This document shows positions 11,145 to 21,812 of a stretch of 64,000 bases of DNA, piece by piece (the first letter of the stretch is position 1; every line of letters begins with the position of its first letter). Both the position numbers and the translations under genes were made by a program. The stretch lies in NCBI RefSeq assembly GCF_053078305.1, contig NZ_CP166879.1; one strand, written 5' to 3'. A model generated the notes under the pieces. The model did not search any database. It saw only the letters and a program-made list of their open reading frames with translations, and was not told the DNA's origin.

Positions 11145-11737
11145 AACACCTTCGCGAAATAGTCCGGGATGGTGGTTTTATCTTTCACCAGAATACTGGT
11201 AATGCCTAGCTGATTAGCTCCTTCTATATTATCGGCGTTATCGTCGAAAAAGGCCGTATCGCTGGGTGAAAAACCTTCCGCCTGCAAAACATGCTGGTAA
11301 ATTCGAGCTTCAGGTTTGCGCATCCCCAGATCTTGCGACAGATAGATATGGTCAGCAGCATCACGAATTTCCGGGTATTCTTCCGGCCAGAAGGTGGTAT
11401 GCAGGCGGTTGGTATTGGAAAGCACCACCACGCGATGCCCCTGCTCACGCAGTTTATGCATGATGGCGATCACTTCCGGGCGCAGCGCAACAAACACCGC
11501 CTGCCAGCCGTGAGAGAACTGCTCGTAGCTTAGCGGTAGAGCCATCTCATGACACAGCGCCTCTGCGAACGCTTCGTCGCTAATTTCCCCACGCTCATGC
11601 TGATGAAACGCCTCGCCCATGTGGAAACTCTTCTTAAGCGTAGCCAGTGGAACACGCGTTAAATCGCTCCAGGCACCCAGCACACGGTTAAAGTCGATAT
11701 CGACAATCACATTACCTAAATCAAAGATATAGAGCAT
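11138..11737 (-). CDS. yihX: HAD-family alpha-D-glucose-1-phosphate phosphatase
   Basis: HAD motif I ([10 protein letters not shown]) near the N-terminus; ORF track extends to 11758 but the likely start is the Met preceding LYIFDLGN. Confidence 0.9.
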
Positions 11738-11877
11738 TTTTGCCTCCTTTCGCGCCACAAGAAATTAACTGTAGCGGGAAAGGATGGGTTTGGCTATGTG
11801 GCAATAAGGGTAATCTTGTGATGCTGATTGCGAAAAAGCAGAGTAATTTCACTGGCTTTTTCGCAATAGATGAATGG

Positions 11878-12822
11878 TTAAGATTCAGGTGTAAATTGCC
11901 AACGAGTTTCGATAACCAGCGGCCTATCTGGTGTCACCAATTCCGGCGTTAGATTTATTGCGTTAGGTGCCTGAGTCAGCGGGTTAATACAGGTGGCATC
12001 GGGCTGTTTATCAAATACCACCAGACTGTTTGCAGAAGAGATCATGGTCATCGCGAGTTTACCAGGCCACAGTAACTTAACCTTCACCCCGTCATAAAAA
12101 CCAAAACAGTCATCCCAGGGACCGACTTGAGGAGAGATGCGATTTCCAGTTGGCAGTTCATCACTACCCGCTTCTTCTTGCCAGTCCGCATCAAAAAGCA
12201 CCTGCAACGATTCTGTATTTTGCGGAGTCAGCTTTTTCGCAAACCACGGATGCCAGCCTGCGGAGGCCGGGAATGTATCGGCATATGAATGGACTTCCAG
12301 TTGCAAAACCAGCGCATCGTTCTCCAGCAAAAAAGTCTGAATCACTTCCCCTTGCCAAGGCCACGGTGAAGCCAGGGGCATACGTAAAGTCAGGGAATCT
12401 GCTGTTTTGTCGATGATTTCCCACGTTGAGTAACAAGCCATACCATGCAACGCATGTGGTGGTTTATTGGCGGGTAAAGAATAACATTGCCCACCAGCAT
12501 TCAGCGTCGCATTCCCCAGTCGCCCTGCCCACGGCACCATTGGGAAACAGCCATACTGAAAAGCTCTACGCTGCGGCTGCCATTGGCGTAATACTTCAGA
12601 ACCAAATGCCTTTAACGAGGTTATCCTGGCACCATCATGCGGATAAATCTGCAGGTGAATATTGCCTTTTTCCAGCGTCACTAACTCTCCTACAGGCCCA
12701 GGCCATGGCGCGTCAAACGCCTGTTGTAGCGCCAGGTAATGCTCGTTTTTTCGTTCAGTTTTCATGAGATTGTTCCCTGATGTAGCGGTAAGAAGCGGTT
12801 TCTTGTTCATCGGTCGGCTCAA
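11878..12822 (-). CDS. Aldose 1-epimerase (mutarotase) family protein, YihR-like; true start probably at 12765 or 12810
   Basis: 314-aa ORF, mutarotase-like composition; its 5' end overlaps the 3' end of the upstream MFS gene by up to 68 bp. Confidence 0.6.
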   Translation of the reverse strand: MSRPMNKKPLLTATSGNNLMKTERKNEHYLALQQAFDAPWPGPVGELVTLEKGNIHLQIYPHDGARITSLKAFGSEVLRQWQPQRRAFQYGCFPMVPWAGRLGNATLNAGGQCYSLPANKPPHALHGMACYSTWEIIDKTADSLTLRMPLASPWPWQGEVIQTFLLENDALVLQLEVHSYADTFPASAGWHPWFAKKLTPQNTESLQVLFDADWQEEAGSDELPTGNRISPQVGPWDDCFGFYDGVKVKLLWPGKLAMTMISSANSLVVFDKQPDATCINPLTQAPNAINLTPELVTPDRPLVIETRWQFTPES

Positions 12823-14104
12823 TCAGCCAGACGCAAACAAAGGAAAGAACTGAGACAGCAAATAAAAACAGAGCGACATACCACGGTTTTCCTCCCCCTA
12901 GCGCCAGCAAACTTGAGGCGATAAGGGGGCTTAGTCCGCCAAGAATCGCGGAAAATTGATAAGCAAAAGAAAGGCCGGTATATCGTACTTTGGTACCGAA
13001 CATGCGGGTGAAAAGTGTTGGCTGCACGGCAAACATCATCGTCGGACCTAAGTTGTAGCCGAGGATCATACTGCACCAGATGATGAGCGTACTTTTGCTA
13101 TCCAGTAATAAGAAGAAAGGAAACGCGAACAGGACACAAAATCCTGCTCCCGACAAATACAGACTTTTTTGACCTATACGATCTGATAACCATCCAACCA
13201 ATGGACAACTGAAAATACCGATCGCCGAGGCAATCAACATACCCGTCAGGGGAATATCTCGCGATAATGCTAATTGGCTGGAAATATAGACAATACCAAA
13301 GGCGTTAATAATATTAGAGGAGACACTTTCCGCCAGCCTCGCACCCAGTGCCAATAAAATATTTCGTGGATGTTTTTTGAATAATTCAATCAACGGAGGA
13401 ACGGACTTTTCTTTATTATTCGTCGTTTTTTGCTTTTGAAAATCCAGCGTTTCTTCGGTATGCAGGCGGATAAACAGCCCAACGATCAACATCACCGCAG
13501 AAAGCCAAAACGGAATGCGCCATCCCCAGGAGAGAAACTGCTCCGAAGTAAGAAAATGGTTACAGAGAGCAAAAATACCGGTTGCCAGCATAATACCCAC
13601 AGACGCAGCCGTTTGCGGGAGTGAACCTAAGAATCCGCGTCGGGATTCGGGCGCTGATTCTATGGTCATCAATGCCGCTCCACCGTACTCGCCACCAAGA
13701 CCAAAGCCCTGAATCAAACGCAGCACCATTAATACAAGCGGTGCCCAAATGCCAATTTCCTGATACGTCGGAATAAAACCAATCAAAAATGTGGAGCAAC
13801 CGACAATAGCCAGCGTCCAGATAAGTGTTATTTTTCGCCCGATTTTATCGCCAAAATGACCAAAGACGATGCCCCCTAAAGGACGAGTCAGAAAACCGAC
13901 ACCAAAGGTCGCAAAGGAAGCTATAAGACCTATAAAAGGATCGCTGTCTGGATAAAACAGCGGTGCAAATACCAGTCCTGCTGCCGTGCCAAAAATAAAG
14001 AAGTCATACCATTCCATTAACGCGCCTGCGAAACTGCCCATAACGACACGTCTCATGGCTTTACCGGAAAGCCCTTCACGCGGTGCGGGTAACTTTTCAG
14101 ACAT
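12755..14104 (-). CDS. MFS transporter, metabolite:H+ symporter (MHS, ProP/KgtP-like) family
   Basis: 449-aa 12-TM ORF with MEWYDFFIFG and GHFGDKIGRK motifs typical of MHS transporters; not the GPH-type YihO/YihP of the K-12 locus. Confidence 0.75.
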   Translation of the reverse strand: MSEKLPAPREGLSGKAMRRVVMGSFAGALMEWYDFFIFGTAAGLVFAPLFYPDSDPFIGLIASFATFGVGFLTRPLGGIVFGHFGDKIGRKITLIWTLAIVGCSTFLIGFIPTYQEIGIWAPLVLMVLRLIQGFGLGGEYGGAALMTIESAPESRRGFLGSLPQTAASVGIMLATGIFALCNHFLTSEQFLSWGWRIPFWLSAVMLIVGLFIRLHTEETLDFQKQKTTNNKEKSVPPLIELFKKHPRNILLALGARLAESVSSNIINAFGIVYISSQLALSRDIPLTGMLIASAIGIFSCPLVGWLSDRIGQKSLYLSGAGFCVLFAFPFFLLLDSKSTLIIWCSMILGYNLGPTMMFAVQPTLFTRMFGTKVRYTGLSFAYQFSAILGGLSPLIASSLLALGGGKPWYVALFLFAVSVLSFVCVWLIEPTDEQETASYRYIREQSHEN

Positions 14105-14202
14105 AATTTTCCTCTCCTGGTAGGCGAGAAATCTGGGATACGAACCACTAAACGTGGGCAGTTTGAATTAATGCGCATCGGCTTAAGCCGATGCGCATTA
14201 AA

Positions 14203-15636
14203 TTATTTCTTCAATTCAGCCAGAACCTCTGCGTCCTCAGCATCAACATTTGCACCCAGTGGTTCCCAATGAATCAATACGCAGGTCAGGAACCCCAGGA
14301 ATGGCACGATTGCCAACCAGTAAAACGCTTCAGTTTTCAACGCACCCCACAGCATCGGCCAGAAAATGAGTCCTGCAATTGCCCCTGTGCGCATAATAGC
14401 GCGGGCAAATCCGACCCCAGTAGGGCGAATAGCGGGAGGATAAGAGAGTGTGGCAATGGTCATGCCCAGCCCACCAGGACCCGCTGAATGGAAGAAAATA
14501 ATTGATCCCAATAACCCTAAAGACAGCCAGGGATTAGTCGTTGCCAGTGCGCCTAACGACAGCAATGCTAAGGTCACAACAGCAAATCCATACATCGACT
14601 GTCGGCGAGTACCCAGTCGTTGGAGAATAAACGAGCCGATCATCCCGCCTGTCACCCCACAAAGGGCATTCACGACGGCAGAACCGGTCAACGCGCCAGT
14701 AAGCCCGCCACTTATTATTCCCGCCAATGTAAGAGGAAGATAAACACCTACGGCGTTATATTGCCACGCCTGCATGGTTGCCACGACACAGCCAAGAATG
14801 GTGCGTTTGCGGTAACGATCATTAAATAAGATGCCATATCCACCACTGTATTTATTCTCTGCTTTTTCCGAGAATTTCGCTTCTGTTGTACTCGATGCCG
14901 CAACGCGAGCCTGAACACCATAACGTTTTCCCAGAATGTCGCACGCTTCCTGGTAACGCCCGACGCGTGCGGCCCACATTGCGGATTCACCAATAAAGAA
15001 GTAACGCAAAATCATGAAGATGACTGCAAAAATAGCTCCGATGAATATTCCGTAACGCCACAATTGTTCTTCAGCGATACCCGACAGAAGCAGCGGCAAA
15101 AGTACCAAATAAACAACGGTTGTCGAAACATACCAGGCCATTTGCCAGAGGTTGACCGACGTTCCGGTTTTCTTCGACGTTGAACCACGAAGCTCTGCCA
15201 CGGCATTGGTTGCCAAAGGGAAGTCGATGCCTAAACCAAAGCCCATGATGACGCGGCACACCAGCACCCACCAGATACTGGGAGCAATAGCTACCGCTGC
15301 AGCACCGATGGTGCACAGCCCCATGCCAATAATAAATGCCCGCTTTTGCCCAAAGCGGTTTATTACTCGGTTCGCTAATAAACCGCCAATTAACGCGGCG
15401 ATTAATACTGATGCATTGACGGTTGCAGCAAGACCCGGCGAAATGCCGAATTGAGCGGCAATGTATTTATTACCAAACCCCACCATCGCCGCCTGGTAGG
15501 CATCAATCAATATGCCGCCCAAAGCAATAAAAATAACGCCGATACTGGTGTTGATTGCAGAGTTCTTATTAACAATATCAATTACGTCCTGTGGCCGACT
15601 AATTGAATAAGTTGCAGGACTGGTGATTTGACTCAT
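14203..15636 (-). CDS. MFS transporter (sugar-porter / aromatic acid:H+ symporter-like)
   Basis: 477-aa polytopic ORF with MFS-type loop motifs (GQKRAFIIG, LGIDFPLATNAVAEL). Confidence 0.75.
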   Translation of the reverse strand: MSQITSPATYSISRPQDVIDIVNKNSAINTSIGVIFIALGGILIDAYQAAMVGFGNKYIAAQFGISPGLAATVNASVLIAALIGGLLANRVINRFGQKRAFIIGMGLCTIGAAAVAIAPSIWWVLVCRVIMGFGLGIDFPLATNAVAELRGSTSKKTGTSVNLWQMAWYVSTTVVYLVLLPLLLSGIAEEQLWRYGIFIGAIFAVIFMILRYFFIGESAMWAARVGRYQEACDILGKRYGVQARVAASSTTEAKFSEKAENKYSGGYGILFNDRYRKRTILGCVVATMQAWQYNAVGVYLPLTLAGIISGGLTGALTGSAVVNALCGVTGGMIGSFILQRLGTRRQSMYGFAVVTLALLSLGALATTNPWLSLGLLGSIIFFHSAGPGGLGMTIATLSYPPAIRPTGVGFARAIMRTGAIAGLIFWPMLWGALKTEAFYWLAIVPFLGFLTCVLIHWEPLGANVDAEDAEVLAELKK

Positions 15637-15705
15637 CGCAGTGTCCTTTTTAATTGTTGTAGGGTGGCGCTGACGTGACGCAGCGCCAGACAGAGATTTA
15701 GAAAA

Positions 15706-16716
15706 TCATTCCGGCGCAAATTGCAGCATGACCTTTATGGAGTCATTTTGCTGCGCGCGTTCGAATGCCGCCGCTGCATCCTCAATGGCAAATAAATCGG
15801 TAACCAGTTCACTGGTATCAAACCGCCCATCCGCCAGCCATTCGATAACAGCATCGAAATCTTCAGGGATGTACATGCCAGAGTTGAGCAAGTCACGCTC
15901 GAAACGTTGCATCATCGGTAATGGTATTTCACGCGGCCCACTTGGTACGCCCATGCACACGACGGTGCCTCCGGCATATACACGGGTACATGCATCGTTA
16001 AGCGTGGCCTGCGCTGCAACGACATCAATCGCCCCCGTAAATCGCACATCTGCGGCCAGCTCACCTGGTGCCCAAACTTCTGCTGCGCCCAGCTTTAACG
16101 CCAGCGCGCGTTTGGCAGCGTCAGGTTCAATCACGGTAATCTTACCTGCCCCCATAATGCGCAGTGCCTGCACGATGGATAAGCCTATCGTTCCGGCACC
16201 AATCACCAGTACGCTTTCCAGAGAAGCTTTCGGCATTCGGTTAACGCAGTGACGGGCACAAGCCGCCGGTTCGGCAAAGGCCAACACTTTTAGCGGTAAA
16301 GAGGCTGGTGCGACATGGCAATTACGCGCAGGAACAATGTGTTGTGAGCGAGCAAAGCCCGGTGCGCGAAAACCAGCAACCTGCGGTGGTTCACAAAGAT
16401 TAAAACGTCCTGCTTTGCAGGCTCGGCATTCCATGCAAGCCATGATGGGATCGACCACAACATGATCGCCCGGCTGTACATTTTTAACGTCGCTGCCAAC
16501 TTCCGTAACGCGCGCTGCAATTTAATGACCGGGGACGACAGGTGGTTTGGCAAACGGATGACCGCCTTTCAGAACATGCAGATCCGAACCGCATATCCCA
16601 TGGAACACAGGCGCAATCCGCACTTCGTGCGGTTTAAGTTCCTGGTGTGGTACTTCAACATATTGAGTGGTGACTTTCCCAATATCTGAAAATAAAACCT
16701 GGGTAATTTTATCCAT
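15706..16716 (-). pseudogene. Zinc-dependent alcohol dehydrogenase (MDR family) interrupted by a single in-frame TAA
   Basis: N-terminal 64-aa ORF (…CGSDLHVLKGGHPFAKPPVVPGH*) and C-terminal 250-aa ORF are in the same frame, separated only by TAA at 16522..16524 (minus strand). The stop falls where Zn-ADHs carry the Glu of the GHE motif; Rossmann motif VIGAGTIGL lies downstream. Confidence 0.7.
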
Positions 16717-16748
16717 TGTTATTCTCCAGAATCGATATCCATAGGGGA

Positions 16749-17636
16749 TTAGCGTTGCGCGATACCTTCATCGACAATTTCTGCCAACCGTTGTAAACGA
16801 GGAACAGAGACATCGCGCAGCATAATTTGTGGATCTTGTGCACCAACAACCGACGCCCAAACCGCTCGTCCAGCCAGGAAGCCTGACGCACCACCTTTCA
16901 TGGCAATACTTACTGCACGGCCAAAAATATCGGCATCAACGCCAGAAGAAAGAATTACCCACGGCATCTTCATCTGATCGTTAAGTTGCTGACAGGCGGC
17001 AAGTAAGGTTTTTTCATCGCCTTTGCCCCCTAATGGCATCTCGGCTTTGTAAAGATCAGCCTCTGTTCCACCAAGCTCTGCGGCGGCGGCAACAATGGCG
17101 CTTTCACGATCAAAGTCCCAACCGCGACGAGGTGGACGCACCACAGGTTCAATAATGCTAACCAGCCCGGCACTACGGCAGCGACGAACAAATTTATCAA
17201 CCATTGCCAGACGTTCCTCTGCGGGTTCATCTTCACGCCAGAGTACAAGTAATTTCATTGCCTTAGCCCCCATTTCACGGGCTTTATGCGGGTCGACGGA
17301 CATATCTATTTCAACGCTATCAACCGGGATGCCATTACCTGGGATAAAAAGATCGGCAGCGACAATCAGGCCGCAAGAATTAGCAACAGCGCCCTGCTCG
17401 ACTATTTGCTCAAGACAAAATTGTTTATCCGCCAGAACGGCAGAAGCATAAGGAGAAAGGATTCGGGTCGCGGCAACTTTAAAATCGGTGAGTACACTGT
17501 CGGCGATGGGTTTTGGCTGCCCTGCTGCCGCAAACATCAAGCGCATGGCCTCACGCTGATCGACAGCTAACATGGCAAATCCACCACCTGGGCGGGAGAT
17601 ATCTTTCAGCGTAAATGGGGTGAAGTGGGATGACAT
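16749..17636 (-). CDS. Class I aldolase, YihT (sulfofructose-phosphate aldolase)-like, divergent from the K-12 protein
   Basis: 295-aa ORF containing [40 protein letters not shown] and [13 protein letters not shown], blocks I recall as shared with E. coli YihT, with many substitutions elsewhere. Confidence 0.7.
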
Positions 17637-17660
17637 AGAAACTCCTGTTAATAGATAAAA

Positions 17661-18560
17661 TTAAAGACCAGCCTGCTGGCGAACCTGATTTAGCAGGGCA
17701 CTCCAGTCCTGCCGCCCTTTGCCGTCTTGACTTGCTGCAGCGTAATAACTTTCTGCTGCAATCCCCATATTGAGCGGTGCCCCCGTCTCCCGAGCGACGT
17801 CAACTGCAATACGCAGATCTTTCAACGCCAGATCCACCATGAAGGCGGGTGAAAGATCGCCTTTCAGCACTTTGCCAGGCCAGGTGGTCGTAAAATGTCC
17901 TTTCCCTGCTGCCGTACCACTCATCACCTTAATTGCGACATCAAGATTTAATCCCAGTGACTCACATAACACAGCGGCCTCGGAGGACAGCGCATTAAGC
18001 GCAATGCTCATATAGTTGTTAATTAGCTTCACGCGGATCCCCATTCCAGGGCCGCCAGCCTCGACCAGCTCATTACCCATGCACATGAGAATCGGGCGTG
18101 CACGTGCAATCTGCTCATCAGTGCCACCCGCTAAAATCAGCAATGTGCCATCAATCGCATTCACGGACGTTCTGCCCACGGGGGCGTCCATCATACTGAT
18201 GCCTTTTTCTTGTAACTCCCGTATTAATGCATCGGTCTGTAAGGGATGAATAGTCGACATATCAATCAATAACGCGTCAGATGAAACAGCCTCACAGACG
18301 CCTTTTTCCCCCAACAGAACCTGTCGAACAATGTCACCATTGGGAAGCATAGTGATGATAAATTCAGCGCCTGCTGCTGCTTCCGCTGGGGTTTGTGCCG
18401 CAGTGGCCCCCTGCGTAACTAGCGCATCGACGGCCAGTGCATTGACATCAAATACCTGCAATGAATGCCCTTTATGCAATAGATTGTTAGCCATTGGGCT
18501 ACCCATCTGCCCCAGCCCGAGAAATGCAATGGTTGCCATGAATACTCTCCTGTCTGACAT
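17661..18560 (-). CDS. NAD(P)-dependent beta-hydroxyacid dehydrogenase, YihU (sulfolactaldehyde reductase)-like, divergent; alternative start 18539
   Basis: Rossmann motif [14 protein letters not shown] near the N-terminus plus [21 protein letters not shown] and [13 protein letters not shown] blocks; roughly 70% identical to my recollection of K-12 YihU. ORF track extends further upstream to 18740. Confidence 0.7.
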
Positions 18561-18711
18561 TGACAAAATAATGACAATTGAAAATTCGTTTTCGTCTGTT
18601 TTTGAGCATATTTGTAATTTATGTTCAAAAACACGACATACATCACTAATTTGATCATTTGTGTCATTTAAATTGACCAAAGACGACAAAATTAAACAGG
18701 ACAAGACAAAT

Positions 18712-19608
18712 ATGACCAGAATTGCATGCGTGGGTATCACAGTTCAGGACAGGATTTATTCTTTGCCCACTCTGCCGGAGGGCGGCGGGAAATATCAGGC
18801 AAATCATTATCTTGAGATTGGTGGCGGCCCGGCAGCAACAGCCGCTGTTGCAATCGCAAGGCTTGGCGTGGAAGTTGATTTCATCGGTCGCGTCGGCGAT
18901 GACAGTTGTGGAAATACCTTACTTGCAGAACTTGAGGGTTGGGGCGTCAATACAGCATTTTGCCGCCGATATCCTAACGCCCGTTCGTCGCAATCAGCGA
19001 TCCTCGTTGATCAGCATGGCGAACGGATTATCGTTAATTATCCAAGTCCTGATCTCGGTACTGATGCCGAATGGTTAGAAGCGATCGATTTCTCTCGTTA
19101 TGATCTGATTCTGGCCGATGTTCGCTGGCATAGCGGTACTGAAAAAGCATTCTCGCTAGCGCGCCTTGCGGGTGTGACAACGCTTTTAGACGCCGATATG
19201 ACACCGCAGGATATTTCTCCACTTGTCGCGCTTGCCGATCACGCCGTGTTCTCAACGCCAGGGCTGAAACGCATGACTGGCCTGCAGTCACCTGAAGAAG
19301 GTTTGTTCCAGGCAACGACACAAACAGCAGGTAAAGTGTATGTTACGCTGGGTTCTGAAGGATCGTTGTGGATTGAAGATGGTCATTTGTGTCAACAGGA
19401 GGCATTTTCTGTCAATGTGGTTGATACCACTGGAGCAGGCGATGTTTTTCACGGCGCACTCGCGGTAGCGTTGGCAGAAAAAATGCCAACAAAAGAGGCT
19501 ATTCGTTTTGCCAGTGCGGTTGCCGCGATGAAATGTACCCAGCCTGGCGGTCGGGCCGGCATTCCTAATCGTGAGCAAACCGAATCATTTTTGTCACTTT
19601 ATGCGTAA
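18712..19608 (+). CDS. PfkB-family sugar kinase, YihV (sulfofructose kinase)-like, divergent
   Basis: Starts [16 protein letters not shown]; PfkB signature [17 protein letters not shown] near the C-terminus. Transcribed divergently from the yihU-like gene. Confidence 0.7.
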
Positions 19609-19647
19609 AATGGTAAACATCTACCGAGGAGGGGCAAGGGAGTATTC

Positions 19648-20436
19648 ATGAGTATCATCGAAGTGACAGGTAATCCACGCCATGACCAACTCGTTCATCT
19701 AATCGCAGAACGCGGTTATATGAATATTGAAGAACTGGCACAACTGCTGGATGTTTCAACGCAAACCGTGCGCCGGGATATCCGAAAACTCAGTGAGCAG
19801 GGCTTGATCACCCGTCATCATGGAGGGGCCGGGCGCGTCTCCAGCGTCATGAATACCGCTTTTGAGCAACGGGAACTTTCGCTCACCGCCGAGAAACGGG
19901 CGATCGCTGAGGCAGTCGCCGATTACCTTCCCGAACGCTGTACCGTCTTTATCACCATCGGTACAACCGTAGAAGCCGTTGCCAGGGCATTACTCAACCG
20001 GCGTGATTTACGCATTATCACTAACAGCCTACGTGTGGCACAGATTCTTTATAAGAATCAGGATATTGAAGTGATGGTGCCGGGAGGCACTTTACGCGCT
20101 CATAACGGCGGGATTATCGGCCCAGGAGCCGTGGATTTTATTGAAGGCTTCCGCGCAGATTATTTAATCACCAGTATAGGTGCCATTGAACATGACGGCA
20201 CCCTACTGGAATTTGATGTAAATGAAGCGTTAGTCGCGAGAACGATGATTAAACATGCGCGGAATACATTGTTAGTGGCCGATCATACGAAGTTTGCCGC
20301 GTCTGCTGCCGTTTCAATTGGCAATGCACGGAATGTCAGGGCTTTTTTTACTGATGCCCCGCCTCCCAATTCTTTCTGCCAGTTGTTAAGTGAAGAGAAT
20401 GTTGAACTGGTGGTTGCCGAGCAGGAAGTTTCCTGA
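19648..20436 (+). CDS. DeoR-family transcriptional regulator, YihW/CsqR-like
   Basis: 262-aa ORF with an N-terminal HTH (EELAQLLDVSTQTVRRDIRKL) and a DeoR C-terminal sugar-phosphate-binding domain. Confidence 0.75.
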   Translation: MSIIEVTGNPRHDQLVHLIAERGYMNIEELAQLLDVSTQTVRRDIRKLSEQGLITRHHGGAGRVSSVMNTAFEQRELSLTAEKRAIAEAVADYLPERCTVFITIGTTVEAVARALLNRRDLRIITNSLRVAQILYKNQDIEVMVPGGTLRAHNGGIIGPGAVDFIEGFRADYLITSIGAIEHDGTLLEFDVNEALVARTMIKHARNTLLVADHTKFAASAAVSIGNARNVRAFFTDAPPPNSFCQLLSEENVELVVAEQEVS

Positions 20437-20447
20437 AATTGAAACTT

Positions 20448-20485
20448 CGAAAAATCCGCTGGGGATTCAGCGGATTTTATTTTGC
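20448..20485. terminator. Bidirectional rho-independent terminator between the yihW-like gene and yihN
   Basis: Perfect hairpin atccgctg-gggattc-cagcggat flanked by an A-run upstream and a T-run downstream; a REP-like palindrome follows at about 20486..20545. Confidence 0.7.
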
Positions 20486-20546
20486 CGGATGCGGCCTACG
20501 GTTGATACGGTTTTCGTTGGCCGGATTAAGCACATCCGGCCATTAA

Positions 20547-21812
20547 TTAAGCTTCAGCCGCCAGCATCTCTTTCTTACGTTGGCTAATACGCTTAACCAG
20601 CATTACGGAAACCACCGCACCACAGAATGCGAAGCAGGCCATAATGCCAAACACGATTTTGTAGCCAATAATCCCCGGATTTAAATCCAGAATGTAGCCA
20701 TACAGACTGAAGCAGAACATCGCCGGGGCGTAACCAATAAAGCTCCCCAACGCCATCGCCGCGCCTGTTTTATTTTCAGCAATTTTTGCTTCGCCGATAG
20801 GTGCAAAAAATACGGCTCGCTGTGTAAAGACTATCGCGCCAAAGCCCAGCGTACATGCCATCCCTAAATAGACCGGCATACTTTCGTGCGGCAGCATAAT
20901 CAACAGTACGAGCGCAGCGGTACTGATGATAAAGGTGTAGCATAGATATTTACTCGGCGATTTCAGGATCTTATCTGAAATCATGCCACCAATCGGTCCA
21001 CCAATCATTTTCAGACAGTATTGGTTAATGATGCCGTAAGCCCCCACCAGCGCAACGGGCAATAGATAGATGTTTTTCAGGAATGGAATGAAGAATGTCA
21101 GGCCACAGTAAACCGCGTAAACGAAGAAGACGTTGAAAGCGATAAGCCAGATGGTTTTGTCTCTCAGCACCGAGGTCATACTGGTGTTTTGCGATGCTCC
21201 GTCTTCTTTTTTCACCTCAACGGACGGTGCCTCTTCTTTGTCATTCAGGACAAAGAAAATAATAATGCCTACGGCAATCACAATAAGGGAATAGAACCAG
21301 ATGCCTGCTTTAAAACCTAATAAGCCACTGCCAAACCAGGTAAATACTGCCAACGCAGAAAATGCCACCACGGTATCGACAATGCCACGCCCTGTTTCGA
21401 AGAAGCCAAACAACCGACCTTGTTGTTCGCTATTGCCCAATCGACTTACCGACTTGAGCAAGACCGGCCAGTTCATCATGTCGCAAGTAACGCCAAATAG
21501 CGCCCAGACAAAGAGGATGCCCCAATACCCCGGCATTGTCGTCAAATAAACACCCAGTAATCCTGTCGCAATGAGTGAGAATGACATGGTGTATCTGCGC
21601 GGTAGTTTATCGGCAAAATAAATAGACAGAAAAAAGCCCACTGTGGTAACAAATGAGTTTACCGACATAGCATTACCAATTTGACCATTGGTCAAATGGA
21701 AATATTCCTGCATCGGGATATAAAACGCATCTTTCAGCGACGGTAATTTATAAATTGTACCGCCACACAGTGTTAATAGACTAAATAACGCCCATTTCTT
21801 TTTCGTGAGCAT
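20547..21812 (-). CDS. yihN: MFS-family inner-membrane transporter
   Basis: 421-aa polytopic ORF; length and position match K-12 yihN. Confidence 0.8.
   Translation of the reverse strand: MLTKKKWALFSLLTLCGGTIYKLPSLKDAFYIPMQEYFHLTNGQIGNAMSVNSFVTTVGFFLSIYFADKLPRRYTMSFSLIATGLLGVYLTTMPGYWGILFVWALFGVTCDMMNWPVLLKSVSRLGNSEQQGRLFGFFETGRGIVDTVVAFSALAVFTWFGSGLLGFKAGIWFYSLIVIAVGIIIFFVLNDKEEAPSVEVKKEDGASQNTSMTSVLRDKTIWLIAFNVFFVYAVYCGLTFFIPFLKNIYLLPVALVGAYGIINQYCLKMIGGPIGGMISDKILKSPSKYLCYTFIISTAALVLLIMLPHESMPVYLGMACTLGFGAIVFTQRAVFFAPIGEAKIAENKTGAAMALGSFIGYAPAMFCFSLYGYILDLNPGIIGYKIVFGIMACFAFCGAVVSVMLVKRISQRKKEMLAAEA

What the first reader, a model, noticed from the sequence alone, without database searches (positions are those of the whole stretch)
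11760..20546. Remodelled and inverted yih (sulfoquinovose-type) catabolic locus with alternative gene content
Between yihX and yihN the window has, on the minus strand, yihU-like reductase, yihT-like aldolase, an interrupted Zn-ADH, two MFS transporters and an aldose epimerase, and on the plus strand yihV-like kinase and yihW-like DeoR regulator. As I recall K-12, yihW abuts yihX and the locus also contains yihS, yihQ, yihP, yihO and ompL. Here the yihUT / yihVW core is inverted relative to the flanks, the YihT/U/V-like proteins are clearly divergent from my recollection of K-12 (YihU about 70% identical), and the isomerase, glycosidase, GPH transporters and porin are replaced. Without a YihS-type isomerase or YihQ-type sulfoquinovosidase, the substrate may differ (a free sulfosugar or related 6-deoxy sugar entering via MFS transport and an oxidoreductive step); this last part is speculation.
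Basis: partly seen in the sequence, partly recalled or inferred. Interest (0 to 1): 0.75.

Follow-up and report, generated by a model that had tools for sequence, protein, structure and literature searches.

The report
Alternative eight-gene yih sulfosugar cassette
This E. coli carries the known 'short' allele of the yih sulfosugar locus, found in about a quarter of strains. It is really a complete eight-gene operon pair, conserved across bacterial phyla, in which a zinc alcohol dehydrogenase replaces the usual sulfoquinovose isomerase; its substrate is unknown, and this strain's dehydrogenase carries a stop codon.

Summary
Window 11805-20488 holds eight genes between yihX and yihN: mutarotase-like, two MFS transporters, a Zn-ADH, YihT-like aldolase and YihU-like reductase on the minus strand, and YihV-like kinase and a CsqR-like repressor on the plus strand. 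The block is inverted relative to K-12, and no yihS, yihQ, yihO, yihP or ompL lies anywhere in the window. The core proteins are 67-72% identical to K-12; the flanks are 98-100%.

The dimorphism and the inversion are already published (Kaznadzey 2025, 'short yihTUVW cassette'). The allele occurs in 1325 of 5426 complete E. coli genomes.

That paper does not mention the four extra genes. Aldolase, kinase and ADH, usually with both MFS transporters, a reductase and the mutarotase, are clustered in Citrobacter (same site) and in every other lineage examined. All eight genes are under strong purifying selection. One relative lies in an organosulfonate island.

The published sulfonate-pocket residues of kinase, aldolase and reductase are all kept. 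The ADH belongs to the polyol-dehydrogenase group (RspB, GatD, sorbitol DH).

Best reading: an undescribed sulfo-EMP variant in which the ADH makes sulfofructose, probably from a 6-sulfo-hexitol. This strain's ADH carries a private Glu65 stop.

The parts
11805..20488 (.). The replaced segment (about 8.7 kb): the alternative yih cassette. It has no DNA similarity to the K-12 cassette at megablast level.
   Evidence: Homology with K-12 ends near 11804 on the yihX side and resumes at about 20483-20489 on the yihN side. GC content is 49.5% against 50.5% for the window.
11830..11864 (-). Hairpin followed by a T-run, downstream of the mutarotase-like gene. Probably the terminator of the six-gene operon.
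   Evidence: Sequence read; coordinates. The function is inferred.
11878..12765 (-). Aldose-1-epimerase-family (mutarotase-like) gene, 295 aa.
   Evidence: PGAP calls it aldose 1-epimerase in strain D8. It is 27% identical to YihR over 164 aa. The closest solved structure is 3nre. Orthologues in other phyla carry PF01263.
12755..14104 (-). MFS1: a metabolite:H+ symporter-type MFS transporter, 449 aa.
   Evidence: Scores 407 bits against TIGR00883 and 410 bits against the shikimate-transporter model, both below their cut-offs. It is 61-67% identical to cluster partners in Rhodopseudomonas, Streptomyces, Sutterella and Vibrio.
14168..14201 (.). Perfect 34-nt palindrome in the gap between the two MFS genes.
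   Evidence: coordinates. Its role was not tested.
14203..15636 (-). MFS2: a second MFS transporter, 477 aa.
   Evidence: Only weak matches to aromatic-acid and sugar-porter MFS subfamilies. It is 65-70% identical to cluster partners in other phyla.
15706..16716 (-). Zn-dependent alcohol dehydrogenase of the polyol-dehydrogenase type. In this strain it is a pseudogene, through a nonsense codon at 16522-16524 (Glu65 to stop).
   Evidence: The intact allele has 336 aa. The closest solved structures are RspB 4ilk, ketose reductase, Tdh, sorbitol DH and GatD. The Zn ligands C42, H64 and E65 and the structural cysteines are invariant. No NCBIfam cut-off is reached. None of 5426 genomes has the stop allele.
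16749..17636 (-). YihT-like class I aldolase, 295 aa. Predicted sulfofructose-1-phosphate aldolase.
   Evidence: 66.7% identical to YihT. Lys193, Arg253, Ala26 and Ser226/227 equivalents are kept. It is 66-74% identical to aldolases of ADH-type clusters in other phyla.
17661..18539 (-). YihU-like 3-sulfolactaldehyde reductase, 292 aa.
   Evidence: Scores 575 bits against NF012005, whose cut-off is 348. It is 72.3% identical to YihU. Arg123, Lys171, Asn174 and Ser178 are kept.
18540..18711 (.). Divergent regulatory region between the reductase operon and the kinase-regulator operon.
   Evidence: A core of about 50 bp, including 18594-18622, is conserved with the K-12 yihU/yihV intergenic region. 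The paper reports that YihW proteins of both strains bind this region from both strains.
18712..19608 (+). YihV-like PfkB kinase, 298 aa. Predicted sulfofructose kinase.
   Evidence: 67.7% identical to YihV. The Lys27-Asn109-Arg138 sulfonate triad, Asp13, Ser95, Asp162 and Asp244 are all kept.
19648..20436 (+). CsqR (YihW)-like DeoR-family repressor, 262 aa.
   Evidence: 71.5% identical to CsqR. The DNA-binding N-terminal 60 residues are 88% identical; the rest is 67%.
20450..20501 (.). Terminator-like hairpin after the regulator gene (20450-20483), followed by a partial REP element (20483-20501) where homology with K-12 resumes.

Best explanation
The segment is the alternative ('short', Nissle-type) allele of the E. 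coli yih locus. It is not a truncated K-12 cassette. [quoted passage not shown]

Proposed steps:
1. An anionic, sulfonated C6 compound that is not a glycoside enters through one MFS transporter.
2. The NAD-dependent, polyol-dehydrogenase-type Zn-ADH oxidises the hydroxyl next to the terminal CH2OH and produces 6-deoxy-6-sulfofructose. The most likely substrate is a 6-deoxy-6-sulfo-hexitol such as the reduced form of sulfoquinovose.
3. The mutarotase-like protein assists ring opening or closing of the sugar.
4. The YihV-like kinase makes sulfofructose-1-phosphate.
5. The YihT-like aldolase splits it into DHAP and sulfolactaldehyde.
6. The YihU-like reductase makes 2,3-dihydroxypropanesulfonate (DHPS), which the second MFS transporter exports.
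7. A CsqR-like repressor controls the divergent promoters. Its DNA-reading head is conserved and its effector domain has diverged.

Shown here: the gene content, the inversion, the population frequency, the conservation of the module across phyla, the purifying selection, and the retention of the published sulfonate and catalytic residues.

Inferred: every biochemical step, the direction of transport, and above all the ADH substrate.

In this particular strain the ADH is cut at codon 65, before its catalytic Glu. If the sequence is correct, the entry step is dead.
For: Allele identity and frequency:
- 1325 of 5426 genomes carry this cassette and 3884 carry the K-12 type, so the two behave as near-exclusive alleles.
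- the dimorphism and the inversion are published.

Lower-pathway enzymes:
-, using residues taken from PMC8006165: every sulfonate-pocket and catalytic residue of YihV, YihT and YihU is kept.
- the reductase scores 575 bits against the sulfolactaldehyde-reductase model, whose cut-off is 348.

The ADH:
- its nearest solved relatives are RspB (L-gulonate 5-dehydrogenase), ketose reductase, sorbitol DH, galactitol-1-phosphate 5-DH and L-idonate 5-DH. From established knowledge, these enzymes oxidise the penultimate carbon of a polyol or aldonate, several of them with an anionic far end.
- the Zn ligands are invariant, and orthologues are 55-91% identical across phyla.

Conserved module:
- in every context examined outside E. 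coli, the ADH lies beside a PfkB kinase and an aldolase wherever the contig reaches them. Usually two MFS transporters, a YihU-family reductase and a mutarotase are there too. No YihS or YihQ homologue appears in any of them. The lineages are Citrobacter, Budvicia, Jejubacter, Vibrio, Rhodopseudomonas, Pleomorphomonas, Sutterella, Streptomyces, Prauserella, Propionibacteriaceae and several metagenome contigs.
- a class II aldolase replaces the class I aldolase in some clusters.

Sulfonate link:
- one relative's kinase-aldolase-ADH trio sits among an isethionate sulfite-lyase, SauS (above its NCBIfam cut-off), a ComC-like dehydrogenase and a SuyAB-like gene pair.

Selection:
- dN/dS is 0.02-0.11 for seven of the eight genes between E. 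coli and Citrobacter; MFS1 has dN 0.08 with dS saturated.

Regulation:
- the operator core and the regulator's N-terminal domain (88%) are conserved, while its effector domain is 67% identical. This fits the published weaker sulfoquinovose response of the Nissle YihW.

Pathway analogy (established knowledge): E. coli galactitol catabolism runs galactitol-1-phosphate, then GatD (a Zn-MDR), then tagatose-6-phosphate, then a kinase, then a class II aldolase. That is the phosphate counterpart of the proposed scheme.
Against: - No enzyme activity was measured, and no natural 6-sulfo-hexitol is known. A full-text search for such names found no paper.
- A mutarotase in most clusters suggests a ring-forming sugar rather than an open-chain polyol as the substrate.
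- In alpha-proteobacterial and actinobacterial clusters the kinase and reductase are only about 30% identical to YihV and YihU. They lack the Lys-Asn-Arg triad and Asn174/Ser178. Sulfonate specificity there rests on the aldolase (63-67% identical to YihT) and on gene context.
- In Nissle 1917 the cassette was not induced by sulfoquinovose, yet the strain was reported to grow on it. That leaves sulfoquinovose use through constitutive expression open.
- The NCBIfam reductase model may have been trained on both alleles.
Confidence: 0.55

Rival explanations
1. Sulfoquinovose itself is the substrate. The mutarotase delivers the right anomer. The Zn-ADH then performs the aldose-to-ketose conversion redox-neutrally, by reduction to the hexitol and re-oxidation at C2, either alone or with a housekeeping aldose reductase. 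The cassette would then be a true sulfoquinovose pathway that lacks only the glycosidase.
For: - A mutarotase-like gene is present in most clusters.
- Nissle 1917, which has no YihS homologue anywhere, was reported to grow on sulfoquinovose as well as K-12 does.
- Its YihW binds DNA weakly at 37 C. The operon could therefore be constitutively on and show no differential expression.
- Sulfoquinovose still partly dissociates the Nissle YihW-DNA complex.
Against: - No second reductase is conserved in any cluster.
- By established knowledge, polyol-dehydrogenase-type MDR enzymes act on secondary alcohols, not on aldehydes.
- The mutarotase is missing from several clusters: Streptomyces, Prauserella, Jejubacter and L091.
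- The Nissle transcriptome on sulfoquinovose showed glyoxylate-shunt, pckA and ppsA induction. That looks like growth on C2 or fatty-acid carbon rather than on DHAP.
Confidence: 0.2
2. The cassette handles a non-sulfonate anionic sugar derivative. Examples are a hexonate or hexuronate-type acid (the ADH resembles L-gulonate 5-dehydrogenase) or a 6-O-sulfated hexose or hexitol from mucin or algal polysaccharides. The resemblance to YihT, YihU and YihV would then reflect common ancestry rather than the same substrate.
For: - The closest structure to the ADH is RspB.
- MFS1 is closest to organic-acid symporters.
- Sulfoquinovose does not induce the cassette in Nissle.
- The alpha-proteobacterial and actinobacterial kinases and reductases lack the YihV and YihU sulfonate residues.
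- The allele is enriched in host-adapted and pathogenic strains.
Against: - In E. coli, Citrobacter, Budvicia and Vibrio every sulfonate-pocket residue is kept at 56-72% overall identity.
- The reductase passes the curated sulfolactaldehyde-reductase cut-off.
- One relative is embedded in an organosulfonate island.
- The aldolases are 63-69% identical to YihT across phyla.
Confidence: 0.12
3. The cassette is a decaying remnant of the K-12 cassette, produced by deletion plus inversion. It no longer has a function in sulfosugar catabolism. This is the reading suggested by the name 'truncated short form'.
For: - The cassette lacks yihS, yihQ, yihO, yihP and ompL.
- It is not induced by sulfoquinovose in Nissle.
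- This strain's ADH is a pseudogene.
Against: - It contains four genes that K-12 lacks.
- The shared genes are only 67-72% identical to K-12, while the flanks are 98-100% identical. It therefore cannot be a recent derivative.
- The same eight genes lie in the same order at the same site in Citrobacter, and the module recurs in other phyla.
- dN/dS is 0.02-0.11.
- All eight genes are intact in D8, in ST131 and in a dog isolate.
- The stop codon is private to this strain.
Confidence: 0.05

Closest known systems
[quoted passage not shown] 2025, PMC12608037)
   Same: It is the same locus and the same allele. It lies between the same flanks, in reversed orientation, with yihT/U/V/W homologues and a YihW about 72% identical to CsqR.
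   Different: The paper defines the cassette as four genes (yihTUVW) and calls it truncated. Its main text never mentions the Zn-ADH, the two MFS transporters or the mutarotase-like gene that complete the operon. It also does not mention their conservation outside E. coli. In addition, this window's copy has a private stop codon in the ADH.
Canonical sulfo-EMP pathway of E. coli K-12 (ompL-yihOPQRSTU / yihVW; Denger et al. 2014)
   Same: It has the same kinase, class I aldolase, sulfolactaldehyde reductase and DeoR repressor families, with all the sulfonate and catalytic residues kept. It has the same divergent-promoter layout and a conserved operator core.
   Different: It has no sulfoquinovosidase, no YihS isomerase, no GPH transporters and no porin. 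Instead it has a Zn-ADH and two unrelated MFS transporters. Its mutarotase is only 27% identical to YihR. The published data show no induction by sulfoquinovose.
Sulfo-EMP2 and hybrid sulfo-EMP1/2 clusters (Liu et al. 2021; Sharma et al. 2023, PMC10665668)
   Same: They show the same idea of non-orthologous replacement of individual sulfo-EMP steps. Relatives of this cassette in Vibrio, Budvicia and Jejubacter use a class II aldolase.
   Different: All the described variants still contain an aldose-ketose isomerase (YihS or SqvD). None uses a dehydrogenase at that step.
Galactitol catabolism (GatD galactitol-1-phosphate 5-dehydrogenase, then kinase, then GatY aldolase) and L-gulonate oxidation by RspB
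   Same: A Zn-MDR of the same subfamily oxidises the penultimate carbon of a hexitol or aldonate that carries an anionic group at the far end. This yields a ketose that is then phosphorylated and cleaved. This comparison rests on established knowledge.
   Different: Those substrates carry phosphate or carboxylate rather than sulfonate. Sequence similarity to GatD and RspB is only at subfamily level: no NCBIfam cut-off is reached, and the best score is 165 bits against a cut-off of 376.

Membership tests
E. coli 'short' yih cassette (Kaznadzey 2025) | Occupies the yih site between the yihX side and the yihN/typA side flanks | tested here: met
   the flanks are 98-100% identical to K-12, with clean junctions near 11804 and 20483-20489.
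E. coli 'short' yih cassette (Kaznadzey 2025) | Orientation reversed relative to the K-12 cassette | tested here: met
   the regulator abuts yihN here, but abuts yihX in K-12.
E. coli 'short' yih cassette (Kaznadzey 2025) | Has yihT/U/V/W homologues and lacks yihO, yihP, yihQ, yihR, yihS and ompL | tested here: met
   Only a distant YihR relative (27% identity) is present.
Canonical sulfo-EMP pathway | Sulfoquinovose-sulfofructose isomerase (YihS, PF07221) | tested here: not met
   no tblastn hit anywhere in the 64-kb window. The paper reports no homologue elsewhere in short-cassette genomes.
Canonical sulfo-EMP pathway | Sulfoquinovosidase (YihQ) | tested here: not met
   no hit. None appears in any related cluster either.
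Canonical sulfo-EMP pathway | Sulfofructose kinase with the Lys27-Asn109-Arg138 sulfonate triad and catalytic Asp244 | tested here: met
   with residues taken from PMC8006165. Activity was not measured.
Canonical sulfo-EMP pathway | Class I sulfofructose-1-phosphate aldolase with the Schiff-base Lys193 and Arg253 | tested here: met
   Lys197 and Arg257 are the equivalents. Identity to YihT is 66.7%.
Canonical sulfo-EMP pathway | Sulfolactaldehyde reductase (YihU) | tested here: met
   575 bits against NF012005, cut-off 348. Arg123, Lys171, Asn174 and Ser178 are kept.
Canonical sulfo-EMP pathway | Induced by sulfoquinovose and required for growth on it | not testable with these tools
   Published RNA-seq and qRT-PCR show no induction in Nissle 1917. 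No knockout data exist.
Polyol-dehydrogenase subfamily of Zn-dependent medium-chain dehydrogenases | Catalytic Zn ligands Cys-His-Glu and four structural-Zn cysteines | tested here: met
   C42, H64, E65 and C94, C97, C100, C108 are invariant in 16 orthologues. In this window's copy Glu65 is the stop codon, so this copy fails the test.
Polyol-dehydrogenase subfamily of Zn-dependent medium-chain dehydrogenases | Closest characterised relatives are polyol, aldonate or threonine dehydrogenases | tested here: met
   RspB at E = 2e-37, followed by ketose reductase, Tdh, sorbitol DH, GatD and L-idonate 5-DH.
Polyol-dehydrogenase subfamily of Zn-dependent medium-chain dehydrogenases | NAD(P)-dependent oxidation of a secondary alcohol next to a terminal CH2OH | not testable with these tools
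   This needs an enzyme assay with synthetic sulfo-hexitols.
Sulfo-EMP2 | SqvD isomerase, SqiK kinase (PF00365) and SqiA class II aldolase (PF01116) | tested here: not met
   The E. coli cassette has a PfkB kinase and a class I aldolase. Only some relatives use a class II aldolase.

The most novel reading that the evidence does not exclude
The Zn-ADH cassette encodes an undescribed entry into sulfoglycolysis: NAD-dependent oxidation of a 6-deoxy-6-sulfo-hexitol to sulfofructose, or redox isomerisation of sulfoquinovose through that hexitol. This would imply a so-far unrecognised sulfonated polyol, or a new isomerase-free route, in gut, soil and marine sulfur cycling. About a quarter of E. coli carry the cassette, including ST131 and Nissle 1917, as do Citrobacter, Sutterella, Vibrio, Rhodopseudomonas and Streptomyces.
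Probability: 0.3. Interest if true: 0.8.

Novelty: new variant of a known kind. Interest (0 to 1): 0.55.

Why it matters
Sulfoquinovose turnover is a large part of the sulfur cycle. In the gut it also feeds H2S-producing bacteria through DHPS.

About a quarter of E. coli genomes carry this allele instead of the textbook pathway, including the ST131 pandemic lineage and the Nissle probiotic. The only paper on the allele treats it as a truncated, probably functionless remnant.

The allele is in fact a complete module under purifying selection, shared with distant phyla and once embedded in an organosulfonate island. That turns it into a concrete, testable candidate for a new sulfosugar or sulfo-polyol pathway. 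One orphan enzyme, the Zn-ADH, holds the answer.

It also corrects how the allele should be annotated and how the published Nissle data should be read: lack of induction by sulfoquinovose may simply mean that the inducer is a different compound.

Tried and rejected
1. Frameshift in the ADH. Rejected: there is no indel against the intact D8 gene, only a C-to-A change that creates TAA.

2. Stop allele as a lineage marker. Rejected: none of 5426 genomes carries the exact 71-mer. It is private, or a sequencing error.

3. Paracoccus wurundjeri MDP0926266. This Zn-MDR lies near a PfkB kinase and an aldolase, and it did not oxidise sulfolactaldehyde. I hoped it was an orthologue whose negative assay would transfer. 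Its N-terminal 90 residues, taken from the paper's supplement, align poorly and lack the family motif. It is not an orthologue, so the result does not apply.

4. Glycyl-radical enzyme next to the L093 cluster as a DHPS lyase. Rejected: it is an ordinary pyruvate formate-lyase.

5. Literature searches for sulfoquinovitol, sulfo-glucitol, sulfoquinovose reductase, sulfofructose reductase or 'sulfo-EMP3'. No paper describes them. The 2026 review lists no dehydrogenase-based variant.

It returned mostly paralogues of about 30% identity, and only nine true orthologue loci. No species count for the module can therefore be given.

7. Mobile-element origin. There is no IS element, integrase, tRNA or GC anomaly at the junctions, only a partial REP element.

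8. PADLOC and NCBIfam searches of the low-GC ORF at 6623-8467 found nothing.

Full report
**What is in the window**

The region lies in an E. coli chromosome read in the opposite direction to K-12. To the left are fabY, dtd, yihY and yihX. To the right are yihN, yihM, yihL and typA.

Eight genes lie between yihX (11138-11737, minus) and yihN (20547-21812, minus).
- A six-gene minus-strand operon, given here in order of transcription: yihU-like reductase 17661-18539, YihT-like aldolase 16749-17636, Zn-ADH 15706-16716, MFS2 14203-15636, MFS1 12755-14104, and mutarotase-like 11878-12765.
- A divergent plus-strand pair: YihV-like kinase 18712-19608 and DeoR regulator 19648-20436.

NCBI's annotation of the nearly identical strain D8 gives the same eight genes.

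**Comparison with K-12**

[quoted passage not shown] In K-12 the regulator abuts yihX.

Protein identities:
- aldolase vs YihT, 66.7%
- reductase vs YihU, 72.3%
- kinase vs YihV, 67.7%
- regulator vs CsqR, 71.5%
- mutarotase-like protein vs YihR, 27% over half its length
- the ADH and both MFS proteins have no counterpart in the K-12 cassette
- flanking YihX, YihN, YihM, YihL and YihY, 98.5-100%

K-12 YihS, YihQ, YihO, YihP and OmpL find nothing in the whole 64 kb.

DNA homology with K-12 stops near 11804 and resumes at about 20483-20489, inside a partial REP element. The cassette's GC content (49.5%) matches the window's (50.5%), and no mobile-element genes are present. This is a clean whole-cassette replacement in intergenic DNA.

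**Frequency**

Of 5426 complete E. coli genomes, 1325 (24%) carry this cassette at about 99% identity. These include ST131 and APEC O2:K1. Another 3884 (72%) carry the K-12 type. The two behave as alternative alleles.

**The 'interrupted' ADH**

Against the intact D8 gene there is no indel. One substitution (plus-strand 16524, C to A) turns codon 65 from GAA into TAA. Glu65 belongs to the Cys42-His64-Glu65 catalytic-zinc motif, which is invariant in the family.

None of the 5426 genomes has this allele. It is therefore private to the source strain, or an error. The cassette differs from D8 at only eight nucleotides. Two of them are in the ADH, and both change the protein (Y39H and E65stop). 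D8, an ST131 strain and a dog isolate have all eight genes intact.

**What is already published**

Kaznadzey et al. 2025 (PMC12608037) describe a 'long' (ompL-yihOPQRSTUVW) and a 'short' (yihTUVW) cassette. Their findings on the short cassette:
- it lies at the same site and in reversed orientation;
- it is scattered over the phylogroups;
- it is enriched in pathogens and present in Nissle 1917;
- it is not induced by sulfoquinovose;
- its YihW is 72% identical to CsqR, binds DNA more weakly, and responds less to sulfoquinovose.

The dimorphism and the inversion are therefore known. The main text of that paper never mentions the Zn-ADH, the two MFS genes or the mutarotase-like gene. It calls the cassette truncated.

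**Are the shared enzymes still sulfo-EMP enzymes?**

Sharma et al. 2021 (PMC8006165) defined the sulfonate pockets:
- kinase: Lys27-Asn109-Arg138, plus Asp13, Ser95, Asp162 and Asp244;
- aldolase: Lys193, Arg253, Ala26 and Ser226/227;
- reductase: Asn174, Ser178, Arg123 and Lys171.

Every one of these residues is kept in the variant proteins. The reductase scores 575 bits against NCBI's sulfolactaldehyde-reductase model, whose cut-off is 348. I infer that the lower pathway is retained: sulfofructose, then its 1-phosphate, then DHAP plus sulfolactaldehyde, then DHPS.

**The four other genes**

- ADH. It reaches no curated NCBIfam cut-off. Its nearest solved structures are RspB, ketose reductase, threonine DH, sorbitol DH, galactitol-1-phosphate 5-DH and L-idonate 5-DH. 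These belong to the polyol-dehydrogenase subfamily. By established knowledge, its members oxidise the carbon next to a terminal CH2OH.
- MFS1. It resembles organic-anion:H+ symporters.
- MFS2. It has only weak subfamily matches.
- Mutarotase-like protein. It is closest to the small E. coli epimerase 3nre.

**Conservation beyond E. coli**

ADH orthologues of 55-91% identity occur in Enterobacterales, Vibrio, alpha-proteobacteria, Sutterella and actinobacteria.

Three Citrobacter genomes carry the same eight genes, in the same order and orientation, between yihN and yihX. Their proteins are 71-94% identical to the E. coli variant.

The same gene set is clustered in every other context I examined. 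These are Rhodopseudomonas palustris, Pleomorphomonas, an alpha-proteobacterial MAG, Streptomyces marincola, a Propionibacteriaceae MAG, Prauserella, a Sutterella MAG, Budvicia, Jejubacter, Vibrio rhodolitus and four metagenome contigs. The set is a DeoR regulator, a PfkB kinase, an aldolase, the ADH, usually two MFS transporters and a YihU-family reductase, and often the mutarotase. No YihS or YihQ homologue appears in any of them.

Vibrio, Budvicia and Jejubacter use a class II aldolase instead of the class I enzyme.

The aldolase-ADH-MFS2-MFS1-mutarotase block is 47-74% identical from E. coli to the other phyla. There, however, the kinase, reductase and regulator are only 24-33% identical and lack the YihV and YihU pocket residues. 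The gamma-proteobacterial versions keep those residues.

One metagenome contig (L091) places the kinase-aldolase-ADH trio among several sulfonate genes:
- an isethionate sulfite-lyase (1424 bits to 5ymr);
- SauS, above its NCBIfam cut-off;
- a ComC-like dehydrogenase;
- a succinate-semialdehyde-type aldehyde dehydrogenase;
- a SAF plus GD_AH pair that looks like SuyAB.

This is independent contextual evidence for a sulfonate substrate.

**Selection**

Between E. coli D8 and Citrobacter MGH106, dN/dS is 0.02-0.11 for seven of the cassette genes; MFS1 has dN 0.08 with dS saturated. Synonymous divergence is near saturation and similar to that of the flanking yihX and yihN. The cassette is maintained by selection, and it appears about as old at this site as the flanks. 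The ratios are rough because of the saturation.

**Regulation**

The reductase/kinase intergenic region shares a conserved core of about 50 bp with the K-12 yihU/yihV region. The regulator's first 60 residues are 88% identical to CsqR, with an identical recognition-helix stretch. The rest of the protein is 67% identical. This fits the published cross-binding of both regulators and the weaker sulfoquinovose response. It suggests a related but different effector; that is an inference.

**Model**

The invariant partners are the ADH, a kinase and an aldolase. No isomerase is ever present, so the ADH is the only candidate for making the ketose that the kinase needs.

A polyol-dehydrogenase-type enzyme would do this by oxidising C2 of a 6-deoxy-6-sulfo-hexitol to sulfofructose. 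This mirrors two known reactions (established knowledge): GatD in galactitol catabolism (hexitol phosphate to ketose phosphate, then kinase, then aldolase) and RspB on L-gulonate.

The remaining steps are those of sulfo-EMP, with one MFS transporter importing the substrate and the other exporting DHPS. All the biochemical steps are inferred.

In this strain the pathway would be blocked at the ADH. Expression of the downstream MFS and mutarotase genes may also suffer from polarity, which is again an inference.

**Rivals**

- Sulfoquinovose itself is the substrate, converted by redox isomerisation. The mutarotase and the reported growth of Nissle on sulfoquinovose favour this. The lack of any conserved second reductase and the starvation-like Nissle transcriptome argue against it.
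- The substrate is a non-sulfonate anion, either a sugar acid or a 6-O-sulfate ester. The conserved pockets and the L091 island argue against this.
- The cassette is a decaying remnant. This is contradicted.

**Novelty and interest**

The locus polymorphism is published and common. New here are three points:
- the recognition that the 'short' cassette is a complete eight-gene module conserved across phyla;
- a dehydrogenase occupies the position of the isomerase;
- the module is linked to organosulfonate genes.

No paper in the searchable library describes such a route. I rate it a new variant of a known kind and moderately interesting. The key experiment is simple and the carrier strains are medically relevant, but the substrate remains a guess.

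**Dead ends**

These are listed under 'tried and rejected': the P. wurundjeri dehydrogenase, the L093 pyruvate formate-lyase, the truncated genome scan, and the uninformative searches on the neighbouring low-GC ORF.

Noticed in passing
window 6623-8467 (minus strand): A 614-aa ORF lies in a stretch of only about 39% GC, just beyond fabY. It has no NCBIfam or PADLOC match. In strain D8 the corresponding gene is annotated as an incomplete hypothetical protein. It may be a foreign insertion.
   Followed up: partly
window 14168-14201: A perfect 34-nt palindrome (TTAATGCGCATCGGCTTAAGCCGATGCGCATTAA) fills most of the gap between the two MFS genes. It could be an intra-operon hairpin that affects transcript stability or attenuation.
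   Followed up: no
L087 (E. coli ST131 MB1159), locus 9178-9725: In this ST131 genome the cassette's regulator gene is followed directly by typA, so yihN, yihM and yihL are absent. The matches in the other B2-type genomes (H5-H8) also stop about 63 bp short at that end.
   Followed up: partly
L007 (Citrobacter sp. R56), locus 14825-18238: About 3.4 kb of extra DNA separates the mutarotase-like gene from yihX. In Citrobacter MGH106 and in E. coli the gap is about 100 bp.
   Followed up: no
L091 (JGI metagenome 3300026363), locus 3053-19720: This is an organosulfonate island. It holds a SuyAB-like pair, an aldehyde dehydrogenase, a 2-hydroxyacid dehydrogenase, a ComC-like dehydrogenase, the kinase-aldolase-ADH trio, SauS, a CoA ligase, and an isethionate sulfite-lyase with its activase. 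It suggests an anaerobe that respires sulfite released from several sulfonates.
   Followed up: partly
window 20483-20501: The junction on the yihN side falls inside a REP element. The element is complete in K-12 but shortened here, so it is a possible recombination point for the cassette exchange.
   Followed up: no
window 19648-20436: The regulator's DNA-binding head is 88% identical to CsqR, with an identical recognition stretch. The effector-binding part is 67% identical. The residues that the 2024 CsqR modelling paper highlighted (Met25, Asn69, Asp212, Lys215) are all kept.
   Followed up: partly
L003, L004, L012, L013 (alpha-proteobacterial and Streptomyces clusters): The kinase, reductase and regulator in these clusters belong to lineages only 24-33% identical to YihV, YihU and YihW. 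Their aldolase, ADH and MFS genes are 64-74% identical to the E. coli ones. The module therefore looks like a mosaic of two blocks with different histories.
   Followed up: partly
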